DNA of 42,960 nucleotides from Escherichia phage vB_EcoP_P64441: sequence record PQ847473.1, one strand, 5' to 3'. Each line of letters begins with the position of its first letter. Position 1 is the stretch's first letter. The notes below the pieces were generated by a model. The model saw only the letters and a list, made by a program, of their open reading frames with translations. It did not search any database and was not told the origin of the DNA. A program made the translations under genes and the position numbers. Of this stretch, positions 16,760-30,459 are shown one piece after another.

Positions 16760-17619
16760 TTCTGGAGGTCGCCCTCCAGTAGGGGGTGTATATAACTGAA
16801 TGCCGAGTCATCTGGACTGCGACGAAGGAACAAGCATTCCATCTCAGCTAGGAAGTTCTGGTTAATCTCTGCGTAGGCCGCGACTACTTTGTTAGCCGCT
16901 CCCTTCTCCGTACTGCAATCCTCTAGGAACTCATACGCACCAGCTGGGCCTATGTTCTTTCCCTTGTACTTAGTAAGTCCAGCAACGTGGTCAGCAGCGT
17001 CACCCATTAGCATCTGGGCGAACATGAAAGCTAAACCATGACCGACTACCTTACCTCTGGATTTATCGTACTCAATCCAGCCGTAAGCATCATCAATCGC
17101 ATCTACAGTACCTAGCTCAGGGTTCCACTTAGGACCTCGGCAGAGGTTCATATCCTTATCGAAGCTGCTTACTAAGCCACGCTCACCAAACAGGATACTA
17201 TCGGTAATGATAAGGTCATCGGCCTCCTGCTGGTAGTCGAAGATAATCTCAATCCCTTGCTGAGCATACTCATTCGGGTTAGCTATGAGGTGTGCCTTAA
17301 GCGGCGCCTTCAGCGGTATCTCTGCTCTAGTTGCACGCTGACCTTGGTAAGGCTTGACGGTAGGCAGGAGGAACCTGCCGCACTTAAAGTTATCAGAAGG
17401 AGTAATGTAGGCGCGTACTTCCTTAGCGTTCGTGTAGAACTTATCTTCCAGAACCAGTTGATAGAAGCGCCGGATAGCTGTATCTAAGCGCTTCACTGTA
17501 CTGGCTGCCTTGTACACTGCTTGGTCTGCATCAAGCAGCAGCACAGTATCTGAAGGAGCAGGCGTCTCTAACTGAGCGCCTAACTCATCTAAGTTAATGC
17601 CTTTAAAGTTAATCAGCAT
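16693..17619 (-). CDS. 5'-3' exonuclease (T7 gp6-like, FEN/PIN fold)
   Basis: Acidic clusters 'LLLDADQAVYKA', 'DDLIITDSIL', 'SFDKDMN' and 'GDAADHVAGL' parallel T7 gp6 'SCDKDFKTIP' and 'GDITDGYSGIAGWG'. Confidence 0.65.
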   Translation of the reverse strand: MLINFKGINLDELGAQLETPAPSDTVLLLDADQAVYKAASTVKRLDTAIRRFYQLVLEDKFYTNAKEVRAYITPSDNFKCGRFLLPTVKPYQGQRATRAEIPLKAPLKAHLIANPNEYAQQGIEIIFDYQQEADDLIITDSILFGERGLVSSFDKDMNLCRGPKWNPELGTVDAIDDAYGWIEYDKSRGKVVGHGLAFMFAQMLMGDAADHVAGLTKYKGKNIGPAGAYEFLEDCSTEKGAANKVVAAYAEINQNFLAEMECLFLRRSPDDSAFSYIHPLLEGDLQKWAEALHQYNEEYKAWRLSTQQ

Positions 17620-18130
17620 ACTTTAATCTCCAGTGACTTAGGCAGTAGTCATATTCCCTTAATGCAGCCATACGACAGGCTACTGCCTCTAATAGCTCCG
17701 GATAGACCCCCAAGTGCTTACGAGACCCTTCTACATTTATATACACCTGCCACTTGCATAGCCTAGACACCCAGGTTACACCTGCAATTCCAGATTTATT
17801 ATTACGCTGAATACTTCTGTTCCGCTGGTTCTCTGCACATGTGACTAACCTAAGATTTTCAATTCTGTTATTAAGAACATCCCTGTCCACATGAGCTACT
17901 TCTAGGTTAAAAGGAATAGCGCCGTTATGCAGTTCCCATACAATCCTGTGAACATACCAATTGGTACCCTTCAGTGCTACAGATAACCTACCCTCAGAAC
18001 CGCTGGGCGTACCTGCTTCAGTGCCAACTTTTATCCGTCGAGCAGCAGCTACCTTCCACAGTAACTGCCCGTCCTCATATTGGAAGTAATCTTCCCAAGC
18101 TATACCGTAGTCGCTAGCTGCCTTCTTCAT
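17609..18130 (-). CDS. HNH homing endonuclease with AP2-like DNA-binding domain
   Basis: 'YVHRIVWELHNG...EVAHVDRDVLNNRIENLRLVTCAENQRN' is an HNH motif, followed by 'GIAGVTWVSRLCKWQVYI...KHLGVY', which looks like an AP2 domain. Confidence 0.7.
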   Translation of the reverse strand: MKKAASDYGIAWEDYFQYEDGQLLWKVAAARRIKVGTEAGTPSGSEGRLSVALKGTNWYVHRIVWELHNGAIPFNLEVAHVDRDVLNNRIENLRLVTCAENQRNRSIQRNNKSGIAGVTWVSRLCKWQVYINVEGSRKHLGVYPELLEAVACRMAALREYDYCLSHWRLKYAD

Positions 18131-18518: not shown

Positions 18519-19319
18519 TTAAAGTGCAGGAGGAACAACAGCGAATGTAGGTGCGGCTGGAGCTACTGGAGCTACTGGAGCAGCAGGTGCAGCAGGTGCA
18601 GCAGGTGCAGCAGGTGCAGATACTGAAGCAGGTGCAGCCATAGCCGCCATGTCAGGAACATCGCCCATTAGCATCTGCTGAAGAGCCGAGCCTTCGAAGT
18701 TAACAGCGCTTAAAATATCTTCTTGCAGAAAATTGTTCTTCTCAATATGCAGAGAATCCCAAGTTTCTTTAGTCGGGTTATCAAACAGGAACAGACGAAG
18801 ACCTGATTCGTCCAATGCTGGCAGCTCTACCGGAGCGCCAGTCTGCGGGTCAAACTTAGGTAGAGTACGCAGACTCAGGAAGTCGATGGTGTTAGAAGTC
18901 TTACCAGCCTTACTGGTGTACTGCTCAACCTCAAACATGAACGCTTGGCCTAGACGTTGTGCCATGTGCTTCAGCGTGCCGTCATAGTTCATCTTGTCGA
19001 AGACTTGTTTAAACTTAGCTTTCTCGAAGCTGCTAATGGCCATTGGGAACGGATTAATACGCTTGATAGAACCATCAGGGGTGTAAACGATGAAGCCTAA
19101 GCGCACGTTCATTACTGCTGGCTTGCCAGTCGGCTTACCCATGTGCATAGGAATCTTTTTACCTAACTCGATGTACTCCATGAAGCGACCAAAGTAAGTA
19201 CCACGCGGAAGCAGTACATCAGCGAAGTTACCGCCAGCCTGTGTTACTGACTGGTCGATGCCCTGAGTAGCTACGGTTTCGTTAACGAGGGAAGACAGTG
19301 CGTTCAGATTGATAGTCAT
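18519..19319 (-). CDS. Hypothetical protein with C-terminal (Pro-Ala-Ala)n low-complexity tail
   Basis: 266-aa ORF. The C-terminus 'APAAPAAPAAPAAPVAPVAPAAP' is encoded by a 9-bp tandem repeat (gcaggtgca)n at about 18556-18625. Confidence 0.45.
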   Translation of the reverse strand: MTINLNALSSLVNETVATQGIDQSVTQAGGNFADVLLPRGTYFGRFMEYIELGKKIPMHMGKPTGKPAVMNVRLGFIVYTPDGSIKRINPFPMAISSFEKAKFKQVFDKMNYDGTLKHMAQRLGQAFMFEVEQYTSKAGKTSNTIDFLSLRTLPKFDPQTGAPVELPALDESGLRLFLFDNPTKETWDSLHIEKNNFLQEDILSAVNFEGSALQQMLMGDVPDMAAMAAPASVSAPAAPAAPAAPAAPVAPVAPAAPTFAVVPPAL

Positions 19320-20489: not shown

Positions 20490-21071
20490 TTATTCGCTTA
20501 CATTAACCCAATCAGGACGCTCACCCTTACCGCAGTAAAAGTCAATCAGGTCTAGTAAGCGTGGATAATACTTCAGCGAACTCTTACCGTCCATTTCCGC
20601 AACCTGGCGCTTACTGAAGCTGCGCCACTCTGCTGCCGTATGCTGCTGACATCCTACACGCACTATGTCATTACAGATACTAATGAAGTACGTTTCTCCG
20701 TATATAATGACAGTCTTGGCGCCGCGCAGGTCAGCGCGGCGCAGGTTAGCGCTGCGCAGGTCAGCTTCGCGCAGGTCAGCGTCGCGCAGGTCAGTGCCGG
20801 TCAGGTCAGCGCCGCGCAGGTCAGCGCCGCGCAGGTCAACGTCGCGCAGGTCAGCGCCGCTCAGGTCAGCGCCGCGCAGGTCAGTGCCGGTCAGGTCAGC
20901 GCCGCGCAGGTTAGCGTAGCGCAGGTTAGCGCCGCGCAGGTCAACGTCGCGCAGGTTAGCACTGCTCAGGTCAGCGTCGCGCAGGTCAGCGTCGCGCAGG
21001 TTAGCGCGGCGCAGGTCAACGCTGTGCAGTCTTCCTAACTTATACTTTTCGCAGATTTCTTGATAGTTCAT
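20490..21071 (-). CDS. Pentapeptide-repeat protein 2 (about 22 A(D/N)LxG/R-type repeats plus a roughly 75-aa non-repeat C-terminal domain)
   Basis: '[56 protein letters not shown]...' is a continuous pentapeptide repeat as in Qnr/MfpA DNA mimics. Encoded by a 15-bp tandem DNA repeat. The N-terminus is paralogous to 27205..27741. Confidence 0.8.
20718..21030. repeat. 15-bp tandem repeat array (coding; pentapeptide repeats)
   Basis: Units such as 'gcgcaggtcagcgcc' / 'gcgcaggttagcgcc' repeated about 20 times. Confidence 0.9.
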
Positions 21072-21111
21072 AGTTAACCTATATGTAAAGAATTATTTAT
21101 TACTGGACAAA

Positions 21112-21160
21112 TCCTGATATTCATGATATAATAAAACCCTTCCTACGCAGGGCTACACCT
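21112..21160. repeat. Copy B of the conserved ~45-bp element (inverted relative to 1418..1482)
   Basis: Plus strand 'catgatataataaaacccttcctacgcagggctacacct' is the reverse complement of the match at 1438-1482. Confidence 0.5.
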
Positions 21161-21347
21161 ACTTCTCCACAACTTCATACTCAGAGGGTGCAAAAGTAAA
21201 CTCCTCATCTTCATCTCCTAAATCAACCTCTCCTGTGTCAGGGAAGAACTCATATACTTCGTGAACACTGCCTACCGGGAATCTATCCATGTACTCGAAC
21301 ATCTCGCCTACACCATATGCACTGTAGTTAAGAATGCGAACTTTCAT
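21159..21347 (-). CDS. Hypothetical small acidic protein (62 aa)
   Basis: 'DTGEVDLGDEDEEFTFAPSEYEVVEK' is strongly acidic. First ORF downstream of promoter P1. Confidence 0.4.
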   Translation of the reverse strand: MKVRILNYSAYGVGEMFEYMDRFPVGSVHEVYEFFPDTGEVDLGDEDEEFTFAPSEYEVVEK

Positions 21348-21461
21348 ATTGAATCCTCTTAAGTCTGCAACCTCACCGCGAAGTTGCTTAACTAAGAGAC
21401 TTCCTTAGCGAGCCTTATTTCTCTTAGACTCTTATCTACATCGCACTGTATTACCTGTGCA

Positions 21462-21512
21462 CGGGAGGAACCGCTCAAGCTCGTACTATCTACCCAGAGC
21501 TTTCAGGAGGGC
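21462..21512 (-). promoter_or_regulatory. Conserved leader element copy 1 (6-bp stem AAGCTC/GAGCTT, 14-nt loop with invariant GGGTAGATA on the transcribed strand)
   Basis: Flanks 'gggaggaaccgctc' and 'caggagggca' are conserved with the copies at 28797-28850 and 30337-30391. The stem sequence differs between copies but pairing is kept. Confidence 0.55.
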
Positions 21513-21579
21513 ACCGGGATTAAAGTCCCCGGTGACTATCAATCCGCTTTGCTATCTGCATCTCGTCTTGATGAAATGA

Positions 21580-21607
21580 ATTCTACAGCATTCTAAAACT
21601 GTGTCAA
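21580..21607 (-). promoter_or_regulatory. Sigma70-like promoter P1 (TTGACA-16 nt-TAGAAT) reading the minus strand
   Basis: Minus strand 'gtgTTGACAcagttttagaatgctgTAGAATtc'. Sits between the DNA polymerase gene and the 62-aa ORF. Confidence 0.5.
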
Positions 21608-21619
21608 CACTTATTTTAA

Positions 21620-22807
21620 TTAAATTACCATCTCCCCTTTAAAGGACTTACCAATCTCACATTCAGCGGGAAACTTAACTTCAGACAGTATGCCAAAGTT
21701 AGGCCACAGCTGTAGCATCCTATCACGGGCTCCTTCCATAACGTTTTTGATGAGCTTACCCGCCTTACGGGCCGTCTCTTCGTCAGCACAATCTATGTAC
21801 AAACAGTCATGGACGGTAACCAGCAAACACCATTTACCCCCCATCCAATTGTCAGCTATACCAGCCCTCATAGCCATTCCGGTTGCAATAAGCATAAGCA
21901 GGGAACCTGATCCTTGAAACGGATAGTTAGCCATCTCTGTGGGCTTAAAGTCCATTACCTGCTTACCTTCGCGCCACACCGGCTTCTGACGGAAGCGGTA
22001 GCGAGTACCGCAAGGCGTAGTGAAGTAGCCCTCGCGATAGATACGCCAGCTGCCGTCATCTGCTTGTTCACGGCGTATAGGCTCCAGCAGCGCAGTACGG
22101 TTTACTTCAGCTGCAATGACATCCCTGTACTTAATAGACTCAGGGAATAGTGCCTCCTCGTTAGCTAAGAACTTCTCAGCGTCGGCTAAGCTAGCACCTG
22201 AGGCGAACGCCAGTCCTTTAGCGGATGCTCCATATTGTGCTGCGAAGCTGAAGGTTTTGATGGCTGTTCGCTTCTTCTTCCATCCTTTATGGTCCGGTGC
22301 ATCCAGGTTATGGCAAAGCTCGTAGACTTCTTCATAAGGCATACCTTCTTGGAATGCTAGACGATAGCAGTGCATATCCGTACCGGCTTCAAGCAAGCTC
22401 AGTAATTTCTTATCACCAGTGATTACACAGCCCATTACAACCTCCATAGCTGAGTAGTCACACTGTGCAATCATACCCTGCTCACCATAGCGGCTACGCA
22501 GAATCTGCTTAACCTTAGACTCACGCGGCAGCTGCTGCATGTTCGGGTTAGATGTTGACAGGCGTCCGGTAGTAGTTGAGCAGTGATTCGACCTGTGGTG
22601 AATGATGCCAGAACCATCTGCTGATGTAGGGATGACGTACGGCAGCATGCCCGTCACCTTACGCAGACTGCCATCCTTATTAGTCTCACGTACTTCATAG
22701 AAGCCGAGGTCCTTCTGGCGTGTAGTCATTTCTTTGTATGTTTTGAAGAAGTCTGAAGCTAACTTAGCCATCTTGTTCCATCCCAATAAAATAATGTGCA
22801 AGGTCAT
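21620..22807 (-). CDS. DNA polymerase (family A), polymerase-domain ORF
   Basis: 'GRLSTSNPNMQQLP' (pre-motif A), 'CDYSAMEVV' (motif A, DYSxxE), 'RTAIKTFSFAAQYGAS' (motif B), 'VTVHDCLYID' (motif C, HD). Overlaps the upstream exonuclease-domain ORF by 44 nt in the +1 frame. Confidence 0.8.
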   Translation of the reverse strand: MTLHIILLGWNKMAKLASDFFKTYKEMTTRQKDLGFYEVRETNKDGSLRKVTGMLPYVIPTSADGSGIIHHRSNHCSTTTGRLSTSNPNMQQLPRESKVKQILRSRYGEQGMIAQCDYSAMEVVMGCVITGDKKLLSLLEAGTDMHCYRLAFQEGMPYEEVYELCHNLDAPDHKGWKKKRTAIKTFSFAAQYGASAKGLAFASGASLADAEKFLANEEALFPESIKYRDVIAAEVNRTALLEPIRREQADDGSWRIYREGYFTTPCGTRYRFRQKPVWREGKQVMDFKPTEMANYPFQGSGSLLMLIATGMAMRAGIADNWMGGKWCLLVTVHDCLYIDCADEETARKAGKLIKNVMEGARDRMLQLWPNFGILSEVKFPAECEIGKSFKGEMVI

Positions 22808-23915
22808 TCATTGCGTCCATTCCTGTGCTGTACACAGGGCTACCATCCGCTAATGTTTGAGCACCTTTGTATTCACCGCGGTCTCCGTACTTCTCACGTA
22901 GAGACTGAGGTAGGTCCTGAATATTAACCAGCCCGTCGAAGCGGTACAGGCGTTCACCCCACTTCATAGCTTGCTCGTCAGTGTCTACTTTTATGAACTT
23001 AGGCATACCCTTATTACGCCCAGACTTATACACCCCGTCCTGTACTTCCTTCTTAATGTATTTAGGTGGGTCATAAGGAACCTTGCACTTGTACTTAACC
23101 GTGCCGCCATACACTAAAGCGGACATATGATAACCGCTATTCCATTTAAACTCGAAGCCCTCTGGCAATTCTGGCAAGAATGTCTGAAGTAACTCCCGCA
23201 GATTCCGAATAGCGTCCTCCTGCTCCTTCTGATTAGCTCTGGCTGTAGGCATATCAACGTACACGCCATTGAACTCACAGTATGCCAGAGCTGCGACTGC
23301 CTCCATCCTTTCCCAGACCATAGGCATCTGTCCACGTTCCGCAAATACTGCGCATTGCCCGTAGAAGCACAGCGCTGTGTTGACTATGTCACCGTTAGGC
23401 CCTGTTAAGTATTCATGTAGTAGCATAGGGTCAATGTCTGCTGTCAGAACCCCTTGCTGCCATAGTAGCTTAACGCCGTCGACTTTGTGTGACCCGCCAT
23501 ACTTAGGGGCAGTCTCATCTAGTGACGGGTAAAGATTCTGGAAGTCGCTGGCAATGTACTCGCCCTGCATAGTATCAAAGACTCGACCTCCTCGTCTAAG
23601 GAACGACTCGAACTGCTCACGGGCAAAGGTCAGCGCCCAGCTAATCTCGTACGCTGCGTTGTGCGCTACGATTAACCACGTATCATCCTGAATAGGTAGC
23701 CACTGCTTAGGGTCAGCTGCTAAGAAATCAGTTCGGGATTCATAGCGTACACTCTGCACCTCGCTGCACTGTACAGTCCCATCCGGCATAGTCCTATCGA
23801 TGCGGAAGCCTGATTCTACGATGTAGTTATCAGGGCAGTACGGAGTTGCGACCCCGCCGTAGTACGGATGATTTTGAGTTTCAATATCCCAAATTAGAAT
23901 GCTACTCATTTCCAA
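22764..23915 (-). CDS. DNA polymerase (family A), N-terminal 3'-5' exonuclease-domain ORF
   Basis: 'LIWDIETQ' is an Exo I (DxE) motif. Contiguous with the polymerase-domain ORF. The called start at 23915 is TTG; a likely ATG start lies at 23909 (MSSILIWDIET). Confidence 0.7.
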   Translation of the reverse strand: MEMSSILIWDIETQNHPYYGGVATPYCPDNYIVESGFRIDRTMPDGTVQCSEVQSVRYESRTDFLAADPKQWLPIQDDTWLIVAHNAAYEISWALTFAREQFESFLRRGGRVFDTMQGEYIASDFQNLYPSLDETAPKYGGSHKVDGVKLLWQQGVLTADIDPMLLHEYLTGPNGDIVNTALCFYGQCAVFAERGQMPMVWERMEAVAALAYCEFNGVYVDMPTARANQKEQEDAIRNLRELLQTFLPELPEGFEFKWNSGYHMSALVYGGTVKYKCKVPYDPPKYIKKEVQDGVYKSGRNKGMPKFIKVDTDEQAMKWGERLYRFDGLVNIQDLPQSLREKYGDRGEYKGAQTLADGSPVYSTGMDAMNDLAHYFIGMEQDG

Positions 23916-24047
23916 TTACTCCGACGTGATTTATTAATGGCTGCCCGTACAATCATCTCGCTACTGTCCAGCGTGTAGCGCCTAACCTGCTTACGATTGT
24001 TAGCAATTGCTCTGATGACTTCGTAGTCTGCCTCAGTAATATCACTT

Positions 24048-24203
24048 TGCTTTAGCATTGTTATTCACCTCACCTTTAAGGCCAGCTAGATGGGATTTAA
24101 GGCACTCGACTAACTCAACAATAGTATCCTCATCCAGTTCGAACATTCCTGAATCCCCCTGCTCCAACTCTATTAATTTTAAAGCTGCTTCATGTAATGT
24201 CAT
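24048..24203 (-). CDS. Small ORF (about 52 aa), below the track threshold
   Basis: Hand translation of the minus strand gives 'MTLHEAALKLIELEQGDSGMFELDEDTIVELVECLKSHLAGLKGEVNNNAKAK'. Acidic. Unverified. Confidence 0.25.
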
Positions 24204-24256
24204 TGCCTTACCTCCTAGTTAGTTGACACTACGCCCCTTGCGAGACGTAGTAGCTA

Positions 24257-24682
24257 CTATACTACGGCTTTCCACTTCTTACCAGTACGTGCCTCACATA
24301 CTGTAGCAGGGTCTACTCCGAATTTAAGGGCTAATGCCCTACCTCCAAACTCAGGATGTCGCGGCACATAGTTCTCTCGAATGTAACGTACTGCATCCTC
24401 AGTAAGCTTAGATATGTAGTGCTGACTTCCTTTACTCATACGCCCCTTTCCTTGCATATCCTTCATGTTATCATCCTGACTACCTAACCTTAAGTGTTCA
24501 GGATTAACACATCTTGGGTTATCGCAAGTGTGCATCACTACGCTACCTTTTATCTGGCTGACTGGAATCTGCTTATTAAAACAGTAGGCCAGCCTGTGCA
24601 GCATTACCTGTTCCCCTTCCCAATACCCATTACCATAACCAGCCTTATTACCTTTCTGATTATGCTCTATGCAATTACTCAT
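24257..24682 (-). CDS. HNH homing endonuclease
   Basis: 'LHRLAY...VVMHTCDNPRCVNPEHLRLGSQDDN' is a classic phage HNH motif. Inserted between the helicase and DNA polymerase genes. Confidence 0.75.
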   Translation of the reverse strand: MSNCIEHNQKGNKAGYGNGYWEGEQVMLHRLAYCFNKQIPVSQIKGSVVMHTCDNPRCVNPEHLRLGSQDDNMKDMQGKGRMSKGSQHYISKLTEDAVRYIRENYVPRHPEFGGRALALKFGVDPATVCEARTGKKWKAVV

Positions 24683-25965
24683 GCTAACCCCTCGCTAAAT
24701 TGACATGTACCACCGTTAAACTCTACCTGAAATTGAACATACGCTGGACTGCCTGACAGTCCTAGCTTATTTTTTGGTGTCGAGATTCCACGTACCGTAG
24801 CCATATCCGGCCTATCGTTAACATTCATGCGACCCATCATAATACACAAATCTAAAGCCCCTTGAATTCCTATCTTAGAACCTTTCAGCGCTGTCAGCGG
24901 GGGGTACATACAGTCATACCCTTCGACTGACAGCTGCACAGTTCCTAAGATTATACAGTCGTGTTCGCATCCTAAGATTCGTAACTGCTGCCACTTCTGC
25001 TCTAATGCCTGGTATTCAGATTCAGCGTTCCCGCCTTTGATGTTACTTACCATGTCCACCACCAGCACAGCTGGGCGCATCTCTTCCAGCAGACTGCTAA
25101 TCTGCCCGAGCCCAATGCTATGCGCATCCTTAACGCGAATCTTATCCCACGTCCCAACCTTCTTCAGATACTTATCAGCGAACTTACCTTCTTTATGCTG
25201 CTCAACAATCTGCTGCAAGGTAAGTCCAGTAGCTGCCTGATAGATACGCGGAACAGTACGCTTAGCTAGTGATTCGTTCACTAACCAGAGTATAGGTCTG
25301 TCAGAGTAGATGTCAGGGCTTTGATGCATCTGCTCTGCAAGCGAGACAACGGTAGCAGCAAGCAGACTCGTCTTTCCCGCGTCCACTGGTGCAGCAACAG
25401 CGACGCAATCACCACCACGCAGGCCGCGAATGTTCCGAGATAACTCAGAGAATACAGTAAGCTGTAACCCGCCGCTTTCATCAGTAGCTGCAAGGATATC
25501 ATCTACACCTCCGTCTTCCCATTTCAATAATGAATCATTAGCAGCTGCTACGCCTGAGTACTTACGCTCAAGCGCTTTAGCTTCTTGTACGAAATCTATT
25601 TCCCCTCCTGCCTGATACTTACTTACAAGCGCAGCCATCTCACCTGAGTAAGCCAGCTCGTTCAGAGTCTTAACTGTACCAGCTACAAGCTCGTTAGGTA
25701 CGTTCTGGATAGTCTTAAGCATATGCTTCAGGATATCCATCTGCTCTTTCTGAAGATGCGTACCGCGCATATCCAAGAGCGTATTCATCGTCTCAAAGTT
25801 AACTTCGTTAGAGTCAGGGTAAGTTGCAAAGTACAGTTGCAGCCAACCAATCATCGCTACTGTATCAGGTGCTAACAGAGACTTAGGTGTCTGCTCATAC
25901 AACCTGTCCATTATCTTACGTTCACAGAAAGCGCGTAGTAAATTAAAGTCCATCAAGTGCTCCAA
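24679..25965 (-). CDS. Replicative DNA helicase (DnaB / T7 gp4 helicase-domain-like)
   Basis: 'VAVAAPVDAGKTSLL' is a Walker A motif; 428 aa; directly downstream of the primase gene. Confidence 0.75.
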   Translation of the reverse strand: MEHLMDFNLLRAFCERKIMDRLYEQTPKSLLAPDTVAMIGWLQLYFATYPDSNEVNFETMNTLLDMRGTHLQKEQMDILKHMLKTIQNVPNELVAGTVKTLNELAYSGEMAALVSKYQAGGEIDFVQEAKALERKYSGVAAANDSLLKWEDGGVDDILAATDESGGLQLTVFSELSRNIRGLRGGDCVAVAAPVDAGKTSLLAATVVSLAEQMHQSPDIYSDRPILWLVNESLAKRTVPRIYQAATGLTLQQIVEQHKEGKFADKYLKKVGTWDKIRVKDAHSIGLGQISSLLEEMRPAVLVVDMVSNIKGGNAESEYQALEQKWQQLRILGCEHDCIILGTVQLSVEGYDCMYPPLTALKGSKIGIQGALDLCIMMGRMNVNDRPDMATVRGISTPKNKLGLSGSPAYVQFQVEFNGGTCQFSEGLA

Positions 25966-26713
25966 GTATTTGGCTGCATTGAGCAGCCTTTGGGTCTACG
26001 TTCAGATGCCTATCATGCACGGGCACGAAGGGCTTAAGTTGCTTAGTAATTGAAACCGTGCCGTTCCAACCTGCACGGTCATCGTCTAACATACAGATTA
26101 CTGGCTTACCTTCTTTAATAAGTTGGGCCTTAAGCCCAAGCGGAAACTTCGTCCCAAGCAAAGCTATTGCCTGAGCAGTCTGTGAAGAATACTTCTCCAA
26201 GACCTGCTGAACCTTCAGCGCTGAAAGGTAGTCCTCGGTCAGTATCGTTATGGTTCCAGTATTCCCAAGCTGCACCCACTGTAATGACTTCCCTAGCATC
26301 ACCCACTTCGGATGCTGGTACTCGTGCAGTGCTCTTGCTATGTAACTTCCCGTTGATAATTTCCACACTAACCTCTTGTATTGTTCTGAGTAATAAACGT
26401 CGCCGACCATATCAGGCCAGATGCCTTTCTGTATTAAGAATCCGTATAGGAACTGCTGAAGCCCTACGTCCAGTTCAGGCAGCGGCTTCAGGTCCTGAGG
26501 GGCGGCTAACTCACGCCCCAGCACTTCTGGTACTGCTAATTGAGCGTACTGCTTACGCTCTGAATGATATGACTTGCATCTGAAGCAAGAGCAAGTCCAC
26601 TTATCTGGCTCGTTCCTGATTACTGCTGCTGCTGTTTTACCGCAGCATCGGAATCTTTCAGTTTGACCAACAGCCAATCTCTGTGCTGCTCTAAGCCATT
26701 GCTCGTTAGCCAT
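25943..26713 (-). CDS. DNA primase (zinc-ribbon plus TOPRIM-like)
   Basis: N-terminal Cys cluster 'CCGKTAAAVIRNEPDKWTCSCFRC' looks like a zinc ribbon. 'VICMLDDDRAGWNG' is an acidic TOPRIM-like motif. Overlaps the helicase gene by 23 nt. Confidence 0.6.
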   Translation of the reverse strand: MANEQWLRAAQRLAVGQTERFRCCGKTAAAVIRNEPDKWTCSCFRCKSYHSERKQYAQLAVPEVLGRELAAPQDLKPLPELDVGLQQFLYGFLIQKGIWPDMVGDVYYSEQYKRLVWKLSTGSYIARALHEYQHPKWVMLGKSLQWVQLGNTGTITILTEDYLSALKVQQVLEKYSSQTAQAIALLGTKFPLGLKAQLIKEGKPVICMLDDDRAGWNGTVSITKQLKPFVPVHDRHLNVDPKAAQCSQILGALDGL

Positions 26714-26892
26714 GATTCTATTAACTCCTTAACGTTATCACTCGTAACAAATACCGTACTGCATGCAGGGTTATCCTCAAATCCGTGCAGCTGGTCTATA
26801 CGGTAGATACTGCTACTCCCTGTCTTGATAGGGGAAATCTTTAAGTTGTGCTCAACGAAGTTCATTAGATGCCTCTGTAGGATGTCTGCCAT
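26620..26892 (-). CDS. Hypothetical protein (90 aa)
   Basis: ORF only. Confidence 0.3.
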   Translation of the reverse strand: MADILQRHLMNFVEHNLKISPIKTGSSSIYRIDQLHGFEDNPACSTVFVTSDNVKELIESWLTSNGLEQHRDWLLVKLKDSDAAVKQQQQ

Positions 26893-27194
26893 TCATAATA
26901 CTCAATGCAAGCAGCCTTAAACGCCTGCTTAGCGCCCTCATACCCCAGCTGCTGCAACTGCCTTACTATATCGAAATTGATGCGTCGCAGGACCTCTGAG
27001 GCCCTTTCAGCATCATACTTATAATAACCTACCAACAACCGCATACCTTCCTTAGTATCGTAGTCCCTGCACCATTTTAAAGGGCAGAGCTTACGCAGTT
27101 CAATCGGTACGTCCTTTAACGTCTTAAGGCCTAAGCTGCTCTGGCTCTCGAGCATACGCCAGTACTGCTCTGTTACTTCTTCTACTGGTAACAT
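26865..27194 (-). CDS. Hypothetical protein (109 aa)
   Basis: ORF only. Confidence 0.35.
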   Translation of the reverse strand: MLPVEEVTEQYWRMLESQSSLGLKTLKDVPIELRKLCPLKWCRDYDTKEGMRLLVGYYKYDAERASEVLRRINFDIVRQLQQLGYEGAKQAFKAACIEYYEWQTSYRGI

Positions 27195-27204
27195 GCCTAG
27201 CTCC

Positions 27205-27741
27205 TTAGATACTAACCCAATCAGCGACGCGCAGGTCAGCGTCGCGCAGGTCAGTGCCGGTCAGGTCAGCGCCGCGCAGGTCAGCGCCGCGCAGGTTAGC
27301 GCCAATCAGGTTAGCGTCGCGCAGGTTAGCGCCGCTCAGGTCAGCGCCGCGCAGGTTAGCGCCGCGCAGGTTAGCGCCGTGCAGGTCAGCGCTGCGCAGG
27401 TCAGCGCCGCTCAGGTCAGCGCCGCTCAGGTCAGCGATGTTCAGGTCAGCGTAGCGCAGGTCAGCGCCGCGCAGGTCAGCGCCGCTCAGGTCAGCGCCGC
27501 GCAGGTTAGCGCCAATCAGGTTAGCGTCGCGCAGCTTAGCGTCGCTCAGGTCAGCGACGCGCAGGTCAGCGTCGCTCAGGTCAGCGTAGCGCAGGTCAGC
27601 GCCGCTCAGGTCAGCGCCGCGCAGGTCAGCGTCGAGCAGGTTAGCGCGGCGCAGGTCAGCGCCGCACAGGTCAGCGCCGCACAGGTCAGCGCCTTCCAAG
27701 GATTCCAACTTGTATTTATTACAGATATTGTCATAAGTCAT
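27205..27741 (-). CDS. Pentapeptide-repeat protein 1 (about 30 contiguous pentapeptide repeats)
   Basis: '[44 protein letters not shown]...' runs almost to the C-terminus. Likely start is the ATG at 27741 (MTYDNICNKYKL) with a GAGG ribosome-binding site; the track ORF extends to 27792. Confidence 0.8.
   Translation of the reverse strand: MTYDNICNKYKLESLEGADLCGADLCGADLRRANLLDADLRGADLSGADLRYADLSDADLRVADLSDAKLRDANLIGANLRGADLSGADLRGADLRYADLNIADLSGADLSGADLRSADLHGANLRGANLRGADLSGANLRDANLIGANLRGADLRGADLTGTDLRDADLRVADWVSI
27225..27695. repeat. 15-bp tandem repeat array (coding; pentapeptide repeats)
   Basis: About 30 units of 'gcgcaggtcagcgcc'-type repeats. Near-identical at the DNA level to the array at 20718-21030. 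Confidence 0.9.
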
Positions 27742-27751
27742 ATTAGTAACC

Positions 27752-27991
27752 TCAGTTAATTTTAATATTAAAACGTGCACAATACCCTTCAAGGGTCATC
27801 CCTACTTTAGCTGCTTTAAGACTGTAAGCTAACTTAAGAGCTTCCTTAGCGTCATGCTCACGAGCCAGCTTCTCAATCGTTACTTCATCATTACGCATCA
27901 GAATCATTTCGGGGTTCCGGTTAATCATTTCTGCATCTCCAGTTTGAAAAGGGCCATTGCAGCGTTCAGGCGAAACGCGGGTTGCATTCAT
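27752..27991 (-). CDS. Hypothetical protein (79 aa)
   Basis: ORF only. Confidence 0.3.
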   Translation of the reverse strand: MNATRVSPERCNGPFQTGDAEMINRNPEMILMRNDEVTIEKLAREHDAKEALKLAYSLKAAKVGMTLEGYCARFNIKIN

Positions 27992-28702: not shown

Positions 28703-28796
28703 CTTAACTCCTTAGTGGTTTTATTAAAGCCCTCCGCAGAAGGCTTTGTAAAACTACTTTAGTTTCTTTCATCTCAGACCCACTGAATTATCCGTG

Positions 28797-28850
28797 GACG
28801 GGAGGAACCGCTCGAGCCTGTTCTATCTACCCTAGGCTCTCAGAAGGGCA
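28797..28850 (-). promoter_or_regulatory. Conserved leader element copy 2 (stem GAGCCT/AGGCTC, loop with GGGTAGATA)
   Basis: Plus strand 'gacgggaggaaccgctcGAGCCTgttctatctaccctAGGCTCtcagaagggca'. Confidence 0.55.
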
Positions 28851-28890
28851 ATCACTTAGCGTTGTTGATTAACGTCCTGCTATGAATCCA

Positions 28891-28918
28891 ACTATACTCC
28901 TATTTTATTTTGTGTCAA
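28891..28918 (-). promoter_or_regulatory. Sigma70-like promoter P2 (TTGACA-16 nt-TATAGT) reading the minus strand
   Basis: Minus strand 'gtgTTGACAcaaaataaaataggagTATAGTtgg'. Confidence 0.5.
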
Positions 28919-30272: not shown

Positions 30273-30336
30273 CTTAGCGAAGCTCTTGTCTCTTCAATCT
30301 AGTGAGCTTCTCATCTATTCCCTCTGTATAATCCGA

Positions 30337-30391
30337 GGACGCTAGGTAACGCTCAGAACCTGTTTATCTACCCCGGTTCTTCAGAAGGGCA
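30337..30391 (-). promoter_or_regulatory. Conserved leader element copy 3 (stem AGAACC/GGTTCT, loop with GGGTAGATA)
   Basis: Plus strand 'ggacgctaggtaacgctcAGAACCtgtttatctaccccGGTTCTtcagaagggca'. Confidence 0.55.
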
Positions 30392-30430
30392 ACCAGTTAT
30401 CGTATCTGGCTAACGTCTTGCTATGTACTG

Positions 30431-30459
30431 ACTATACTTCTACAAAACAGGTAAGTCAA
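30431..30459 (-). promoter_or_regulatory. Sigma70-like promoter P3 (TTGACT-17 nt-TATAGT) reading the minus strand
   Basis: Minus strand 'TTGACTtacctgttttgtagaagTATAGT'. Confidence 0.5.

What the first reader, a model, noticed from the sequence alone, without database searches (positions are those of the whole stretch)
20718..27695. Near-identical 15-bp tandem-repeat arrays in direct orientation flank the replication genes
The two pentapeptide-repeat genes are encoded by DNA arrays built from the same 15-bp units (gcgcaggtcagcgcc and variants), about 6.2 kb apart on the same strand. Direct repeats of this length are recombination substrates. Recombination between them would delete primase, helicase and DNA polymerase, so the arrays are probably kept by selection and may undergo concerted evolution or repeat-number variation. 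They could also cause assembly collapse or expansion artefacts.
Basis: seen in the sequence. Interest (0 to 1): 0.5.

Follow-up and report, generated by a model that had tools for sequence, protein, structure and literature searches.

The report
Repeat-built paralogous phage pentapeptide-repeat genes
The two 15-bp repeat arrays are real; they are the coding cores of two related phage genes for rod-shaped pentapeptide-repeat proteins, they gain and lose repeat units quickly, and their position on either side of the replication genes looks incidental.

Summary
Arrays at 20719-21022 (20 units) and 27221-27693 (31 units) share the consensus unit GCTGACCTGCGCGGC. Both are read on the minus strand as A(D/N)LxG pentapeptides (Pfam PF00805).

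"Near-identical" overstates the similarity. Identity between the arrays is 81-88% in every register, the same as within each array. The only colinear stretch is a 69-bp exact block at the 3' ends.

Gene A (20490-21071) adds a conserved 75-aa C-terminal domain. It belongs to a widespread phage family that includes ST64T orf232. Gene B (27205-27741) is missing from all eight relatives that cover its site. It is a 547-bp cassette inserted between a stop codon and the next ribosome-binding site. Its N-cap and tail mark it as an A-type copy that lost the C-domain.

Concerted evolution is supported. Each amino acid uses one codon, none of 63 variant codons is synonymous, and other phage lineages are fixed on other codon sets. 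Orthologues carry 16-31 units in this group and 7.6-20.6 in P22-like phages.

A crossover between A and B would delete 6,460 bp holding primase, helicase and polymerase, which should be lethal. Protein function is untested; the best guess is an early DNA-mimic or host-interference protein. This is a new member of a known kind, of modest interest.

The parts
20490..21071 (-). Gene A, 193 aa. It has an N-cap ([17 protein letters not shown]), 20 pentapeptide units and a 75-aa conserved C-terminal domain.
   Evidence: ORF. Pfam PF00805, E=4e-38. phrog_7713 and phrog_37032. AlphaFold2 gives a beta-helix plus a small alpha/beta domain, mean pLDDT 80. Orthologues occur in PAS7, L013, L014, L020 and L022.
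20719..21022 (-). Array A: 20 units of 15 bp, consensus GCTGACCTGCGCGGC on the coding strand.
20493..20717 (-). C-terminal domain of gene A ([14 protein letters not shown]...[11 protein letters not shown]), function unknown. The same domain follows other kinds of beta-solenoid or stands alone in other proteins.
   Evidence: phrog_37032, E=3e-32. No Pfam or PDB sequence match. 237 representative clusters match it. Of 83 longer members, 60 carry pentapeptide repeats, 13 carry YdcK-solenoid repeats and 4 carry bactofilin repeats. Stand-alone forms of 56-93 aa also exist.
27205..27741 (-). Gene B, 178 aa from the ATG at 27741, which follows a GAGG Shine-Dalgarno sequence. It has an N-cap (MTYDNICNKYKLESLEG) and 31 pentapeptide units, ends ADWVSI*, and has no C-terminal domain. 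pI 4.36, net charge -12.
   Evidence: ORF. Pfam PF00805, E=2e-58. AlphaFold2 gives a pure beta-helix, mean pLDDT 91. Charge.
27221..27693 (-). Array B: 31 units of 15 bp with the same consensus unit as array A.
27203..27749 (-). The 547-bp gene-B cassette, inserted in this lineage only. It sits between the stop codon of the upstream phrog_5136 gene and the TAAGGAGCTAGGCATG ribosome-binding site and start of the 109-aa gene. The junctions are CTGAGG|TTACTAAT... and ...ATCTAAGG|AGC.
   Evidence: Alignment A2. The cassette is absent from PAS7, S.Kent 1-2-1, LM 4-14-1, ECO121 2-1-1, ECO26.1 3-1, L012, L020 and L023.
20768..20836 (-). The 69-bp tract in array A that is identical to 27228-27296.
   Evidence: None of 400 unit-order shuffles reaches 69; the maximum is 54.
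27228..27296 (-). The 69-bp tract in array B that is identical to 20768-20836. A crossover here would delete 6,460 bp.
27211..27224 (-). Tail of gene B, CTGATTGGGTTAGT (codons for DWVS). It matches the last codons of gene A (20502-20515, CTGATTGGGTTAAT, PDWVN) and marks loss of the C-domain by an internal deletion at a CTGA microhomology.
   Evidence: This is the only other match with at most one mismatch in the whole window. Shuffle frequency 2e-4.
21620..26713 (-). Replication module between the arrays: primase 25943-26713, helicase 24679-25965, HNH endonuclease 24257-24682, and DNA polymerase in two ORFs (22764-23915 and 21620-22807).
21580..21607 (-). Sigma-70-like promoter (TTGACA-16-TAGAAT) that heads the transcription unit containing ORF62 and gene A. 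A conserved structured leader follows it at 21431-21557.
28891..28918 (-). Sigma-70-like promoter (TTGACA-16-TATAGT) that heads the operon containing gene B. The same leader family follows it at 28768-28890.

Best explanation
The window is a complete genome of about 42.8 kb from a lytic coliphage of the Cepavirus group (Autographiviridae, Slopekvirinae). It is about 80% identical to phage vB_EcoP_PAS7. The two arrays are the coding cores of two paralogous accessory genes for pentapeptide-repeat proteins, which fold as right-handed quadrilateral beta-helices.

Shown:
- Gene A is the group's usual copy. It sits after the DNA polymerase gene and has a 20-unit helix plus a conserved C-terminal domain.
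- Gene B is a cassette found only in this lineage. It has an A-type N-cap and an A-type tail, has lost the C-domain, and shares a 69-bp identical block with the resident gene A.
- Each array uses one codon per amino acid. All variation between units changes the amino acid, mainly at three positions of the unit (D/N and the last two residues). Different phage lineages are fixed on different codon sets. Unit number differs among orthologues.

Inferred:
- The arrays behave as coding minisatellites. Replication slippage and unequal or ectopic exchange keep adding, removing and homogenising units (concerted evolution). Selection retains only amino-acid differences on the surface of the helix, so helix length and surface can change quickly.
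- The A/B pair also exchanges sequence. The identical 3' block next to a strongly diverged N-cap is best read as gene conversion or a chimeric origin.
- An A x B crossover would be in frame. It would leave one hybrid gene and delete 6,460 bp holding primase, helicase and polymerase. Such genomes cannot replicate on their own and are lost. The flanking arrangement is therefore a tolerated cost, not a selected feature.

Speculative: both proteins are made early from host-type promoters and act as DNA-shaped decoys or binders of a host DNA enzyme or defence protein.
For: Identity and taxonomy.

Protein family and fold: Pfam PF00805, AlphaFold2 beta-helices, Foldseek top hits to solved pentapeptide-repeat proteins such as MfpA, Qnr, AlbG and NP275/276, and to phage pentapeptide-repeat proteins.

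Concerted evolution:
- Codon monomorphism, log10 P = -47 and -70.
- None of 63 variant codons is synonymous; about 31% would be expected from my own count of 14 synonymous among the 45 possible single-base changes to the consensus unit. Differences fall 5 at third codon positions against 73 at first and second positions.
- Codon sets differ by lineage: GCT/CTG/GGC here and in PAS7, GCC/CTG/GGT in ST64T, ST104, epsilon34, g341c and MSW-3, and GCA/CTA/GGC in CP-T1.
- PAS7's array is homogenised on a different mix of units, mainly ANL[R/Y/C]G.

Copy number: 20 units here, 31 in PAS7 and 16 in L013. Seven finished P22-like genomes with near-identical N-caps and the same C-domain start carry 7.6, 11.6, 13.6, 13.6, 14.6, 16.6 and 20.6 units. 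Phages L and ST64T are more than 99.9% identical yet differ by a 15-bp deletion of one repeat (bioRxiv 10.1101/2020.10.05.325894).

Origin of gene B:
- It is absent from eight relatives, with exact insertion junctions.
- Its N-cap is of the Cepavirus type but is only 59-67% identical in DNA to every A allele, whereas A alleles are 67-82% identical to each other.
- Its tail matches the last codons of gene A.
- The 69-bp block is identical only between the two genes of this genome. The other alleles match 34-39 of 43 positions, and no shuffle reaches 69.

Early expression: sigma-70-like promoters lie upstream of both transcription units.

Anti-defence neighbourhoods of homologues: between ral and the superinfection-exclusion gene and near abc1/abc2 in ST64T, two genes from a Lar-like gene in PMBT5, and after two DNA methyltransferase genes in CP-T1.

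Charge: gene B is acidic, pI 4.36, net -12.
Against: - Whole-array unit identity between A and B (0.837) is no higher than between either array and PAS7 (0.826-0.837). Evidence for A-B exchange therefore rests on the 3' block and the tail alone.
- That block could be retained ancestry rather than conversion.
- No reads or population data were available, so ongoing length change in this phage is inferred from relatives.
- Some short orthologues (3-7 units) may be assembly collapses rather than real alleles.
- No experiment bears on function. Gene A is nearly neutral (net -2), so acidity is not a family trait.
- Scores against the Qnr and MfpA models are far below their cut-offs.
- PADLOC gives no hit, and I found no paper that assigns a function to a phage pentapeptide-repeat protein.
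Confidence: 0.75

Rival explanations
1. The unit counts, or even the presence of two arrays, are artefacts of short-read assembly: expansion, collapse or a chimeric join.
For: The window is a graph assembly: positions 1-127 equal 42834-42960 exactly. Related records show trouble at these arrays. A contig ends at the array (L014), PAS7 has a -4 nt frameshift in unit 15, k=31 and metagenome contigs carry only 3-7 units, and many database homologues are 'partial'.
Against: The longest exact repeats are 39 bp within A, 48 bp within B and 69 bp between them. Every 71-mer in the arrays is unique, so a k=127 graph has a single path. Both ORFs are intact and in frame through 20 and 31 units. Gene B has clean, sensible junctions: stop codon, Shine-Dalgarno sequence, ATG, then a stop that overlaps the next ribosome-binding site. 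The N-caps differ (61% identical), so the two genes are not one locus assembled twice. Collapse of a perfectly duplicated block of 127 bp or more cannot be excluded.
Confidence: 0.1
2. The arrays work at the DNA level. They would be iteron-like or protein-binding repeat blocks that bracket the replication module, for example origin or boundary elements, and the reading frames would be incidental.
For: The arrays are direct repeats on both sides of primase, helicase and polymerase. Third codon positions are invariant, as would be expected if the DNA sequence itself were constrained.
Against: Both arrays lie inside ORFs with strong Pfam matches, conserved N-caps and, for A, a conserved C-domain. 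Array B is missing in eight relatives and array A in two, and all of these keep the same replication genes. Homologous arrays in other phages use different nucleotides for the same peptides. They also sit in unrelated places such as the PL operon of P22-like phages. The phage group is T7-like and has its own RNA polymerase. From my own knowledge, such phages are not known to use iteron origins.
Confidence: 0.03
3. The single-codon pattern reflects selection for efficient translation of highly expressed early genes, not DNA-level homogenisation.
For: From my own knowledge, GCT, GAC, CTG, CGC, GGC and AAC are all well-translated codons in E. coli.
Against: The phage's other genes prefer CGT (53%), GGT (48%) and GAT (53%). 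The arrays use CGC, GGC and GAC exclusively. Translational selection would allow mixtures of CGT/CGC and GGT/GGC. Other lineages are fixed on GGT and GCC, and CP-T1 on CTA and GCA. L013, a close orthologue, does mix CTG/CTA and GGC/GGT.
Confidence: 0.05
4. Gene B was brought in whole from a different phage and has never exchanged sequence with gene A. The shared 69-bp block and tail would then be ancestral features of the family.
For: The N-cap of B is more distant from every known A allele (59-67%) than those alleles are from each other. The unit pair ADL(T/H/R)G-TDL recurs near the array end in PAS7 and L013.
Against: The block is 100% identical only to the resident gene A, whereas the other alleles match 34-39 of 43 positions. 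No B-type N-cap or tail was found in IMG/VR. The tail is closest to the window-A and L022 versions.
Confidence: 0.2

Closest known systems
ST64T orf232 / ST104 ORF19 / epsilon34 gp42 family of phage 'pentapeptide repeat family proteins' (phrog_37032 C-domain)
   Same: Gene A has the same architecture: a short N-cap, a variable A(D/N)LxG array and a conserved C-domain of about 70 aa. It is 55-64% identical over residues 41-193. The 15-bp coding array shows the same behaviour, with monomorphic codons and variable unit number. Expression is early.
   Different: The N-cap differs (MNYQEIC... against MNSADLSKILEEHKVW...). The codon set differs (GCT/GGC against GCC/GGT). The host phage is lytic and T7-like, not temperate and P22-like. 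The gene follows the DNA polymerase gene instead of lying in the PL operon. Gene B lacks the C-domain altogether.
vB_EcoP_PAS7 locus at OQ921331 10872-11612
   Same: It is the positional orthologue of gene A, in a genome about 80% identical, with the same codon set and a related N-cap and C-domain.
   Different: PAS7 has 31 units with a -4 nt frameshift. The array is annotated there on the wrong strand as 'modular polyketide synthase', and the C-domain is annotated as a separate hypothetical protein. PAS7 has no gene B.
MfpA / Qnr / AlbG / McbG topoisomerase-protecting pentapeptide-repeat proteins
   Same: They share the right-handed quadrilateral beta-helix fold. Gene B has a similar size (178 aa against about 180-215) and an acidic surface like the proposed DNA mimics.
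   Different: NCBIfam scores are 46-69 bits against cut-offs of 240-360. The B model shows no C-terminal dimerisation helix. From my own knowledge, those genes are not built from near-uniform 15-bp DNA units. Gyrase binding was not tested.
Coding tandem repeats (minisatellite-like or contingency-type arrays) that evolve in concert
   Same: The units are homogeneous within an array at silent sites. Lineages differ from one another. Orthologues show in-frame changes in unit number.
   Different: Here the repeat unit is one rung-quarter of a beta-helix. Copy-number change therefore alters rod length in steps of about 1.2 angstrom per unit, or 4.8 angstrom per four units (my own knowledge of the fold). 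Two arrays in one small lytic genome share a pool of units.

Membership tests
Pentapeptide repeat proteins (Pfam PF00805, Rfr fold) | Tandem A(D/N)LXX pentapeptides detected by the family profile above its gathering score | tested here: met
   Gene A scores 128.9 bits and gene B 194.1 bits against a cut-off of 20.2. Units are listed.
Pentapeptide repeat proteins (Pfam PF00805, Rfr fold) | Right-handed quadrilateral beta-helix, four units per coil | tested here: met
   AlphaFold2 models show one short strand every five residues. Mean pLDDT is 91 for B and 88-96 per ten-residue block over the main body of A's repeat region (residues 21-100). Foldseek matches to solved pentapeptide-repeat proteins reach E=1e-10. 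These are predictions, not experiments.
Phage pentapeptide-repeat plus C-domain family (ST64T orf232-like, phrog_37032) | Conserved C-terminal domain of about 70 aa (YFISI...GCQ.H...EW..FSK..I..MDG...L.FYPRLL..IDFY...RPDW) | tested here: met
   Gene A matches phrog_37032 at E=3e-39 over the whole protein and 3e-32 for the C-domain alone. tblastn reaches residue 193 in P22-like, Edwardsiella and Vibrio phages. Gene B does not meet this feature: it keeps only the last DWV codons.
Qnr / MfpA quinolone-resistance and gyrase-protecting pentapeptide-repeat proteins | Score above the NCBIfam equivalog cut-off | tested here: not met
   Qnr model: 45.6 bits (A) and 68.0 bits (B) against 240. MfpA model: 48.3 and 69.1 bits against 360.
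Qnr / MfpA quinolone-resistance and gyrase-protecting pentapeptide-repeat proteins | C-terminal helix that mediates tail-to-tail dimerisation | tested here: not met
   The B model has no helix at all. Gene A ends in an unrelated alpha/beta domain.
Qnr / MfpA quinolone-resistance and gyrase-protecting pentapeptide-repeat proteins | Binds DNA gyrase or topoisomerase IV and protects it from poisons | not testable with these tools
   This needs supercoiling and protection assays.
DNA-mimic anti-restriction proteins (Ocr, ArdA type) | Strongly acidic, DNA-like surface charge | tested here: inconclusive
   Gene B has pI 4.36 and net charge -12. Gene A has net charge -2. The spatial pattern of charge was not analysed.
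DNA-mimic anti-restriction proteins (Ocr, ArdA type) | Sequence membership in the Ocr or ArdA families | tested here: not met
   Only pentapeptide and decapeptide repeat families were hit in Pfam.
Tandem arrays under concerted evolution | Silent sites are homogeneous within an array but differ between lineages | tested here: met
Tandem arrays under concerted evolution | Unit number varies among orthologues | tested here: met
   20, 31 and 16 units in this phage group. 7.6-20.6 units in finished P22-like genomes. Phages L and ST64T differ by a 15-bp indel. Variation within this phage's own population was not tested.
Iterons or origin-associated direct repeats | Non-coding repeat block conserved together with the replication genes it serves | tested here: not met
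   The arrays are coding. Array B is absent in eight relatives and array A in two, and these have the same replication module.

The most novel reading that the evidence does not exclude
Phage pentapeptide-repeat genes may be a general fast-evolving device. In this reading the protein is a beta-helical rod encoded by a coding minisatellite. Slippage and ectopic exchange would retune its length and surface from generation to generation, to track a changing host target such as a DNA-binding defence nuclease, or a topoisomerase under attack by a toxin. A phage with two copies, as here, could exchange blocks between them. The same direct repeats would continually shed 6.46-kb deletion genomes that lack the replication genes. 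If packaged, these could act as defective interfering particles at high multiplicity of infection.
Probability: 0.2. Interest if true: 0.6.

Novelty: new member of a known kind. Interest (0 to 1): 0.33.

Why it matters
Pentapeptide-repeat proteins are common in phage genomes; a tblastn search found matches in 309 phage records. I found no paper that assigns any of them a function.

This window offers a clean natural comparison: one full-length copy, and one copy reduced to the bare helix and inserted recently at a defined site. It also gives clear sequence evidence that these genes evolve as DNA-level repeat arrays.

That has three practical consequences:
- These genes are often misassembled, cut short or annotated on the wrong strand. 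PAS7's 'modular polyketide synthase' is an example.
- Helix length is a fast-changing trait worth testing against host defence systems.
- Engineered or therapeutic phages that carry two such arrays have a built-in route to deletion of their replication genes.

None of this changes current understanding. It is a well-documented example, not a new kind of system.

Tried and rejected
- **Plus-strand ORFs.** The ORFs through the arrays on the plus strand (AQVSA repeats, 20640-21038 and 27193-27759) are by-products of a stop-free repeat. All neighbouring genes, the Pfam matches, the N-caps and the C-domain are on the minus strand.
- **Colinear alignment of the arrays.** No register stands out; identity is 81-88% everywhere. 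Only weak higher-order periods appear, at offset 5-6 in A and offset 14 in B.
- **Whole-array test for extra A-B homogenisation.** It was negative: 0.837 between A and B against 0.826-0.837 to PAS7.
- **Exact-protein look-ups.** Neither A nor B is on record.
- **Degenerate DNA patterns for B's N-cap and tail in IMG/VR.** No hits.
- **Closer relatives.** The metagenome scan and two IMG/VR scans found only relatives of about 50-90% protein identity (about 74-83% DNA identity to the window for the closest), and none carries gene B.
- **C-domain function.** There is no Pfam family and no solved relative; the PDB profile hits at E=0.16 or worse look like chance. Fold searches of the whole model were dominated by the helix.
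- **Other libraries.** PADLOC gave no hit. The NCBIfam 'Alr5209' hit for B (179 bits against a cut-off of 125) comes from four repeat-driven stretches, so I do not take it as orthology.
- **False positives.** WD40 and other long multi-repeat hits to the C-domain (P0181, P0204) were dismissed.
- **Diversity-generating retroelement.** I considered it as the source of unit variation and dropped it, because the substitutions are not specific to adenines.

Full report
**What is there**

Tandem Repeats Finder reports two 15-bp arrays in the window and nothing comparable elsewhere: 20719-21022 (20.3 copies, 82% matches, score 398) and 27221-27693 (31.5 copies, 84% matches, score 610). Both raise local G+C to 0.54-0.56 against about 0.47-0.49 around them. 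Both sit in minus-strand ORFs, like all neighbouring genes.

Read on the minus strand, the unit is GCT GAC CTG CGC GGC, which encodes A-D-L-R-G. Array A has 20 units and array B has 31. Pfam PF00805 (pentapeptide repeats) matches both proteins, at E=4e-38 and 2e-58. The plus-strand ORFs through the arrays (AQVSA repeats) are by-products of a repeat that contains no stop codons.

**How alike the arrays are**

They share a consensus and seven identical 15-mer unit types, but they are not near-identical as arrays. Ungapped identity is 81-88% at every unit offset. That is the same as the identity of each array to itself at any offset (0.81-0.87). Mean unit-to-unit identity is 0.837 between arrays, against 0.834 and 0.840 within them.

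The exception is a 69-bp exact match at the 3' ends (20768-20836 = 27228-27296). The next longest shared runs are 41, 39 and 39 bp, and fifteen runs reach 24 bp or more. In 400 shuffles of unit order, the longest shared run never exceeded 54 bp. The longest exact repeats inside A and inside B are 39 and 48 bp.

**Which phage this is**

The region is about 80% identical to Escherichia phage vB_EcoP_PAS7 (Autographiviridae, Slopekvirinae) and to several unannotated wastewater contigs. The PAS7 authors proposed the genus Cepavirus for it (PMC11522302).

The window's first 127 bp equal its last 127 bp. I read this as the end overlap of a graph assembly made with k=127. If so, the window is a complete contig of 42,833 unique bases.

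**The two genes**

*Gene A* (20490-21071, 193 aa) has three parts: an N-cap ([17 protein letters not shown]), 20 repeat units and a 75-aa C-terminal domain.
- The C-domain matches phrog_37032 (E=3e-32), a family of unknown function. It has no Pfam family and no solved relative by sequence.
- The same architecture, at 55-64% identity through to the last residue, occurs in P22-like Salmonella phages (ST64T orf232, ST104 ORF19, epsilon34 gp42, g341c, L). It also occurs, at 50-63% identity, in Edwardsiella phages and Vibrio phage CP-T1.
- An exhaustive search with the C-domain found 237 representative clusters. Of 83 longer members, 60 carry pentapeptide repeats, 13 carry YdcK-type solenoid repeats and 4 carry bactofilin repeats. 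Stand-alone forms of 56-93 aa also exist. The C-domain is therefore a module that follows beta-solenoids of several kinds.

*Gene B* (27205-27741, 178 aa) has a related N-cap (MTYDNICNKYKLESLEG) and 31 units, then ends ADWVSI*. It has no C-domain.

AlphaFold2 models both repeat regions as regular beta-helices. Gene B has mean pLDDT 91. Gene A has mean pLDDT 80, with a less confident small alpha/beta C-domain. Foldseek places them with solved pentapeptide-repeat proteins (NP275/276, Rfr23, MfpA, QnrB1, AlbG) and with many uncharacterised phage proteins.

Gene B is acidic (pI 4.36, net -12). Gene A is nearly neutral (net -2). Neither reaches the NCBIfam cut-offs for Qnr or MfpA, and PADLOC has no match.

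**Presence and absence in relatives**

Gene A has orthologues in PAS7, in two IMG/VR contigs (L013, L014), in an ENA contig (L020) and in a Logan contig (L022). It is missing from S.Kent 1-2-1 and ECO104 4-5-2 and from the Koutsourovirus KKP 3828.

Gene B is missing from all eight relatives that cover its site: PAS7, S.Kent 1-2-1, LM 4-14-1, ECO121 2-1-1, ECO26.1 3-1, L012, L020 and L023. In each, homology stops at window position 27208 and resumes at about 27848, with roughly 92-107 bp in between.

The alignment gives exact junctions. In the relatives, the upstream gene's stop codon overlaps the next gene's ribosome-binding site (..CAC TAAGGAGCTAGGC ATG). In the window, 547 bp (27203-27749) lie between CTGAGG and a second CTAAGG. 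The insert brings its own GAGG-N8-ATG start, and its own stop recreates the TAAGGAG site. Both genes are therefore accessory, and B is a recent arrival. The flanking of the replication genes is a consequence of where B landed.

**Where gene B came from**

- *N-cap.* B's N-cap is of the type seen only in this phage group. At the DNA level, however, it is 59-67% identical to every A allele, while A alleles are 67-82% identical to each other.
- *Tail.* B's last codons, CTGATTGGGTTAGT, match only one other place in the window: the last codons of gene A (CTGATTGGGTTAAT, PDWVN). The match is 13 of 14, with a shuffle frequency of 2e-4. The motif RPDW is the conserved end of the family's C-domain. B therefore descends from a full-length A-type gene that lost the C-domain. 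The deletion joined GCTGA in a repeat unit to CCTGA just before TTGGGTTA.
- *3' block.* Immediately upstream lies the 69-bp block, which is identical only to the resident gene A. The other alleles match 34-39 of its central 43 positions.

A diverged 5' end joined to a 3' end identical to the co-resident paralogue suggests gene conversion or a chimeric origin. Retained ancestry cannot be excluded. No B-type N-cap or tail was found in IMG/VR.

**Evidence that the arrays evolve as DNA repeats**

- *One codon per amino acid.* Within both arrays almost every amino acid uses a single codon: Ala GCT 45/45, Asp GAC 48/48, Leu CTG 51/52, Arg CGC 35/35, Gly GGC 27/27. The phage's other genes prefer CGT (53%), GGT (48%) and GAT (53%). 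The log10 probabilities are -47 and -70.
- *No silent variation.* Of the 63 codons that differ from the consensus unit, none is synonymous. By my own count, 14 of the 45 possible single-base changes to the unit (31%) are synonymous. Differences fall 73 at first and second codon positions and 5 at third positions. They concentrate at the D/N position and the last two positions of each unit. From my own knowledge of the fold, these positions face outward.
- *Different codon sets in other lineages.* ST64T, L, ST160, PM43, ST104, epsilon34, g341c and MSW-3 use GCC/CTG/CGC/GGT. CP-T1 uses GCA/CTA/CGC/GGC. PAS7 shares this window's set, but its array is homogenised on a different mix of units, mainly ANL[R/Y/C]G, with internal identity 0.877.
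- *A misleading similarity.* An unrelated Eggerthella phage gene happens to share this codon set and matches array B at 84% nucleotide identity. About 84% identity between such arrays is therefore not evidence of close kinship.

Homogeneity within a lineage and divergence between lineages at silent sites is the classic signature of concerted evolution. Translational selection does not explain the exclusive use of CGC and GGC here, of GGT elsewhere, or of CTA in CP-T1.

**Copy-number variation**

Orthologues of gene A carry 20 units (window), 31 (PAS7) and 16 (L013). Seven finished P22-like genomes with near-identical N-caps and the same C-domain start carry 7.6, 11.6, 13.6, 13.6, 14.6, 16.6 and 20.6 units. 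Phages L and ST64T are more than 99.9% identical yet differ by a 15-bp deletion of one repeat in this gene (bioRxiv 10.1101/2020.10.05.325894). Each unit is a quarter of a helix coil, so these changes alter the length of the rod.

**Assembly**

- Contig L014 ends at the array.
- PAS7's array has an 11-nt unit that shifts the frame. Its annotators called the opposite strand 'modular polyketide synthase' and the C-domain a separate protein.
- Short-read contigs carry only 3-7 units.
- A large share of database homologues are labelled 'partial'.

For this window the risk is lower. Every 71-mer inside the arrays is unique, so a k=127 graph has a single path through them. Collapse of a perfectly duplicated block of 127 bp or more cannot be ruled out without long reads.

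**Recombination**

The shared exact runs that I checked lie in the same 15-bp register, so an A x B crossover would be in frame. At the 69-bp tract it would delete 6,460 bp holding the 109-aa and 90-aa genes, primase, helicase, an HNH endonuclease gene, both polymerase ORFs and ORF62. It would leave one hybrid gene with B's N-cap and A's C-domain.

Such a genome lacks its replication genes and should not form plaques. The reciprocal product, a 6.46-kb duplication, would make the genome about 15% longer. From my own knowledge I expect that to be too long to package, but this is unverified. The arrangement therefore imposes a small continuing loss. It is not evidence that selection keeps the arrays because of their position. 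How often such crossovers happen was not measured.

**Expression and likely role**

Both genes lie downstream of strong sigma-70-like promoters on the minus strand: TTGACA-16-TAGAAT at 21607-21580 and TTGACA-16-TATAGT at 28918-28891. The phage RNA polymerase gene lies further downstream in this group. I infer that the host polymerase transcribes both genes early.

Homologues sit among anti-defence and host-takeover genes:
- In P22-like phages, directly after N and ral, before the superinfection-exclusion gene, and upstream of erf, abc1 and abc2.
- In PMBT5, two genes from a Lar-like restriction-alleviation gene.
- In CP-T1, after two DNA methyltransferase genes.

I found no experimental study of any phage pentapeptide-repeat protein. 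My best guess, marked as speculation, is a DNA-shaped decoy or binder of a host DNA enzyme or defence protein. The C-domain might serve as an added binding or assembly module. Gene B would be a bare, acidic rod of about MfpA size.

**Verdict**

'Near-identical' and 'kept by selection because they flank essential genes' are not supported.

The genes belong to a known but uncharacterised phage family, so this is a new member of a known kind. The lineage-specific paralogue without a C-domain, and the very clean signature of concerted evolution, are the points of modest interest.

Noticed in passing
window 21431-21557, 28768-28890, 30310-30431 (all minus strand); also L001 (three copies), L012 (two copies), L013, L022: A conserved structured RNA of about 123 nt lies directly downstream of each of three strong sigma-70-like promoters: 21607-21580, 28918-28891 and 30459-30431. 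A covariance model finds 11 copies in Cepavirus-like genomes. 93% of cells are paired against 74% in shuffles (0 of 500 reach the observed value) and 27-40% in slid controls. 14 of 21 pairs show double changes, and one 6-bp helix covaries at every pair. It has no Rfam family. Two of the three copies head the transcription units that contain the pentapeptide-repeat genes. It might be a cis-acting leader such as an antitermination RNA of the HK022 put type (my own recollection, untested).
   Followed up: partly
window 1-127 and 42834-42960: The first and last 127 bp are identical. I read this as the end overlap of a k=127 graph assembly of a circular or terminally redundant genome. The unique genome length is then 42,833 bp.
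   Followed up: yes
window 21620-22807 and 22764-23915 (minus strand): The DNA polymerase is encoded in two overlapping ORFs of 383 aa and 395 aa, with a 44-nt overlap. The same split is called in PAS7 and in ENA contig L020. The Koutsourovirus KKP 3828 has a single 774-aa gene. The polymerase is either truly split or made by a programmed frameshift.
   Followed up: no
L001 (PAS7, OQ921331) locus 3761-4501: PAS7's orthologue of gene A is misannotated. The array's opposite strand is called 'modular polyketide synthase', and the C-domain is listed as a separate 75-aa hypothetical protein. The array contains an 11-nt unit (a -4 nt change) that shifts the frame after unit 14. This is either a sequencing error or a real pseudogene.
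   Followed up: partly
window 20493-20717; proteins P0117-P0266: The 75-aa C-domain of gene A has no Pfam family. It recurs after three different kinds of beta-solenoid (pentapeptide, YdcK-type and bactofilin-type) and also as a stand-alone small protein. This suggests an unnamed module that is specifically associated with solenoid rods.
   Followed up: partly
window 17609-18130 and 24257-24682 (minus strand): Two free-standing HNH-type endonuclease genes are present. One lies between the helicase and polymerase genes. PAS7 and L020 also carry an HNH endonuclease gene just downstream of the polymerase gene, which this window lacks. This variable content fits mobile homing endonucleases.
   Followed up: no
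L019 8467-8730 (IMG/VR contig 3300002461_000243): A more distant phage, whose phosphoesterase is 48% identical, has its own 17.6-unit array with a different unit (GCGAACCTTAGCTCT, ANLSS). A divergent version of the same C-domain follows it. This is another independent example of an array with uniform codons.
   Followed up: no
window 18557-18638 (minus-strand gene 18519-19319): A 9-bp tandem repeat (CTGGAGCTA / GCAGCAGGT, about 9 copies) encodes an Ala-Pro-rich tail (PAAPAAPAAPAAPVAPVAPAAP) at the C-terminus of a 266-aa protein of unknown function (phrog_862).
   Followed up: no
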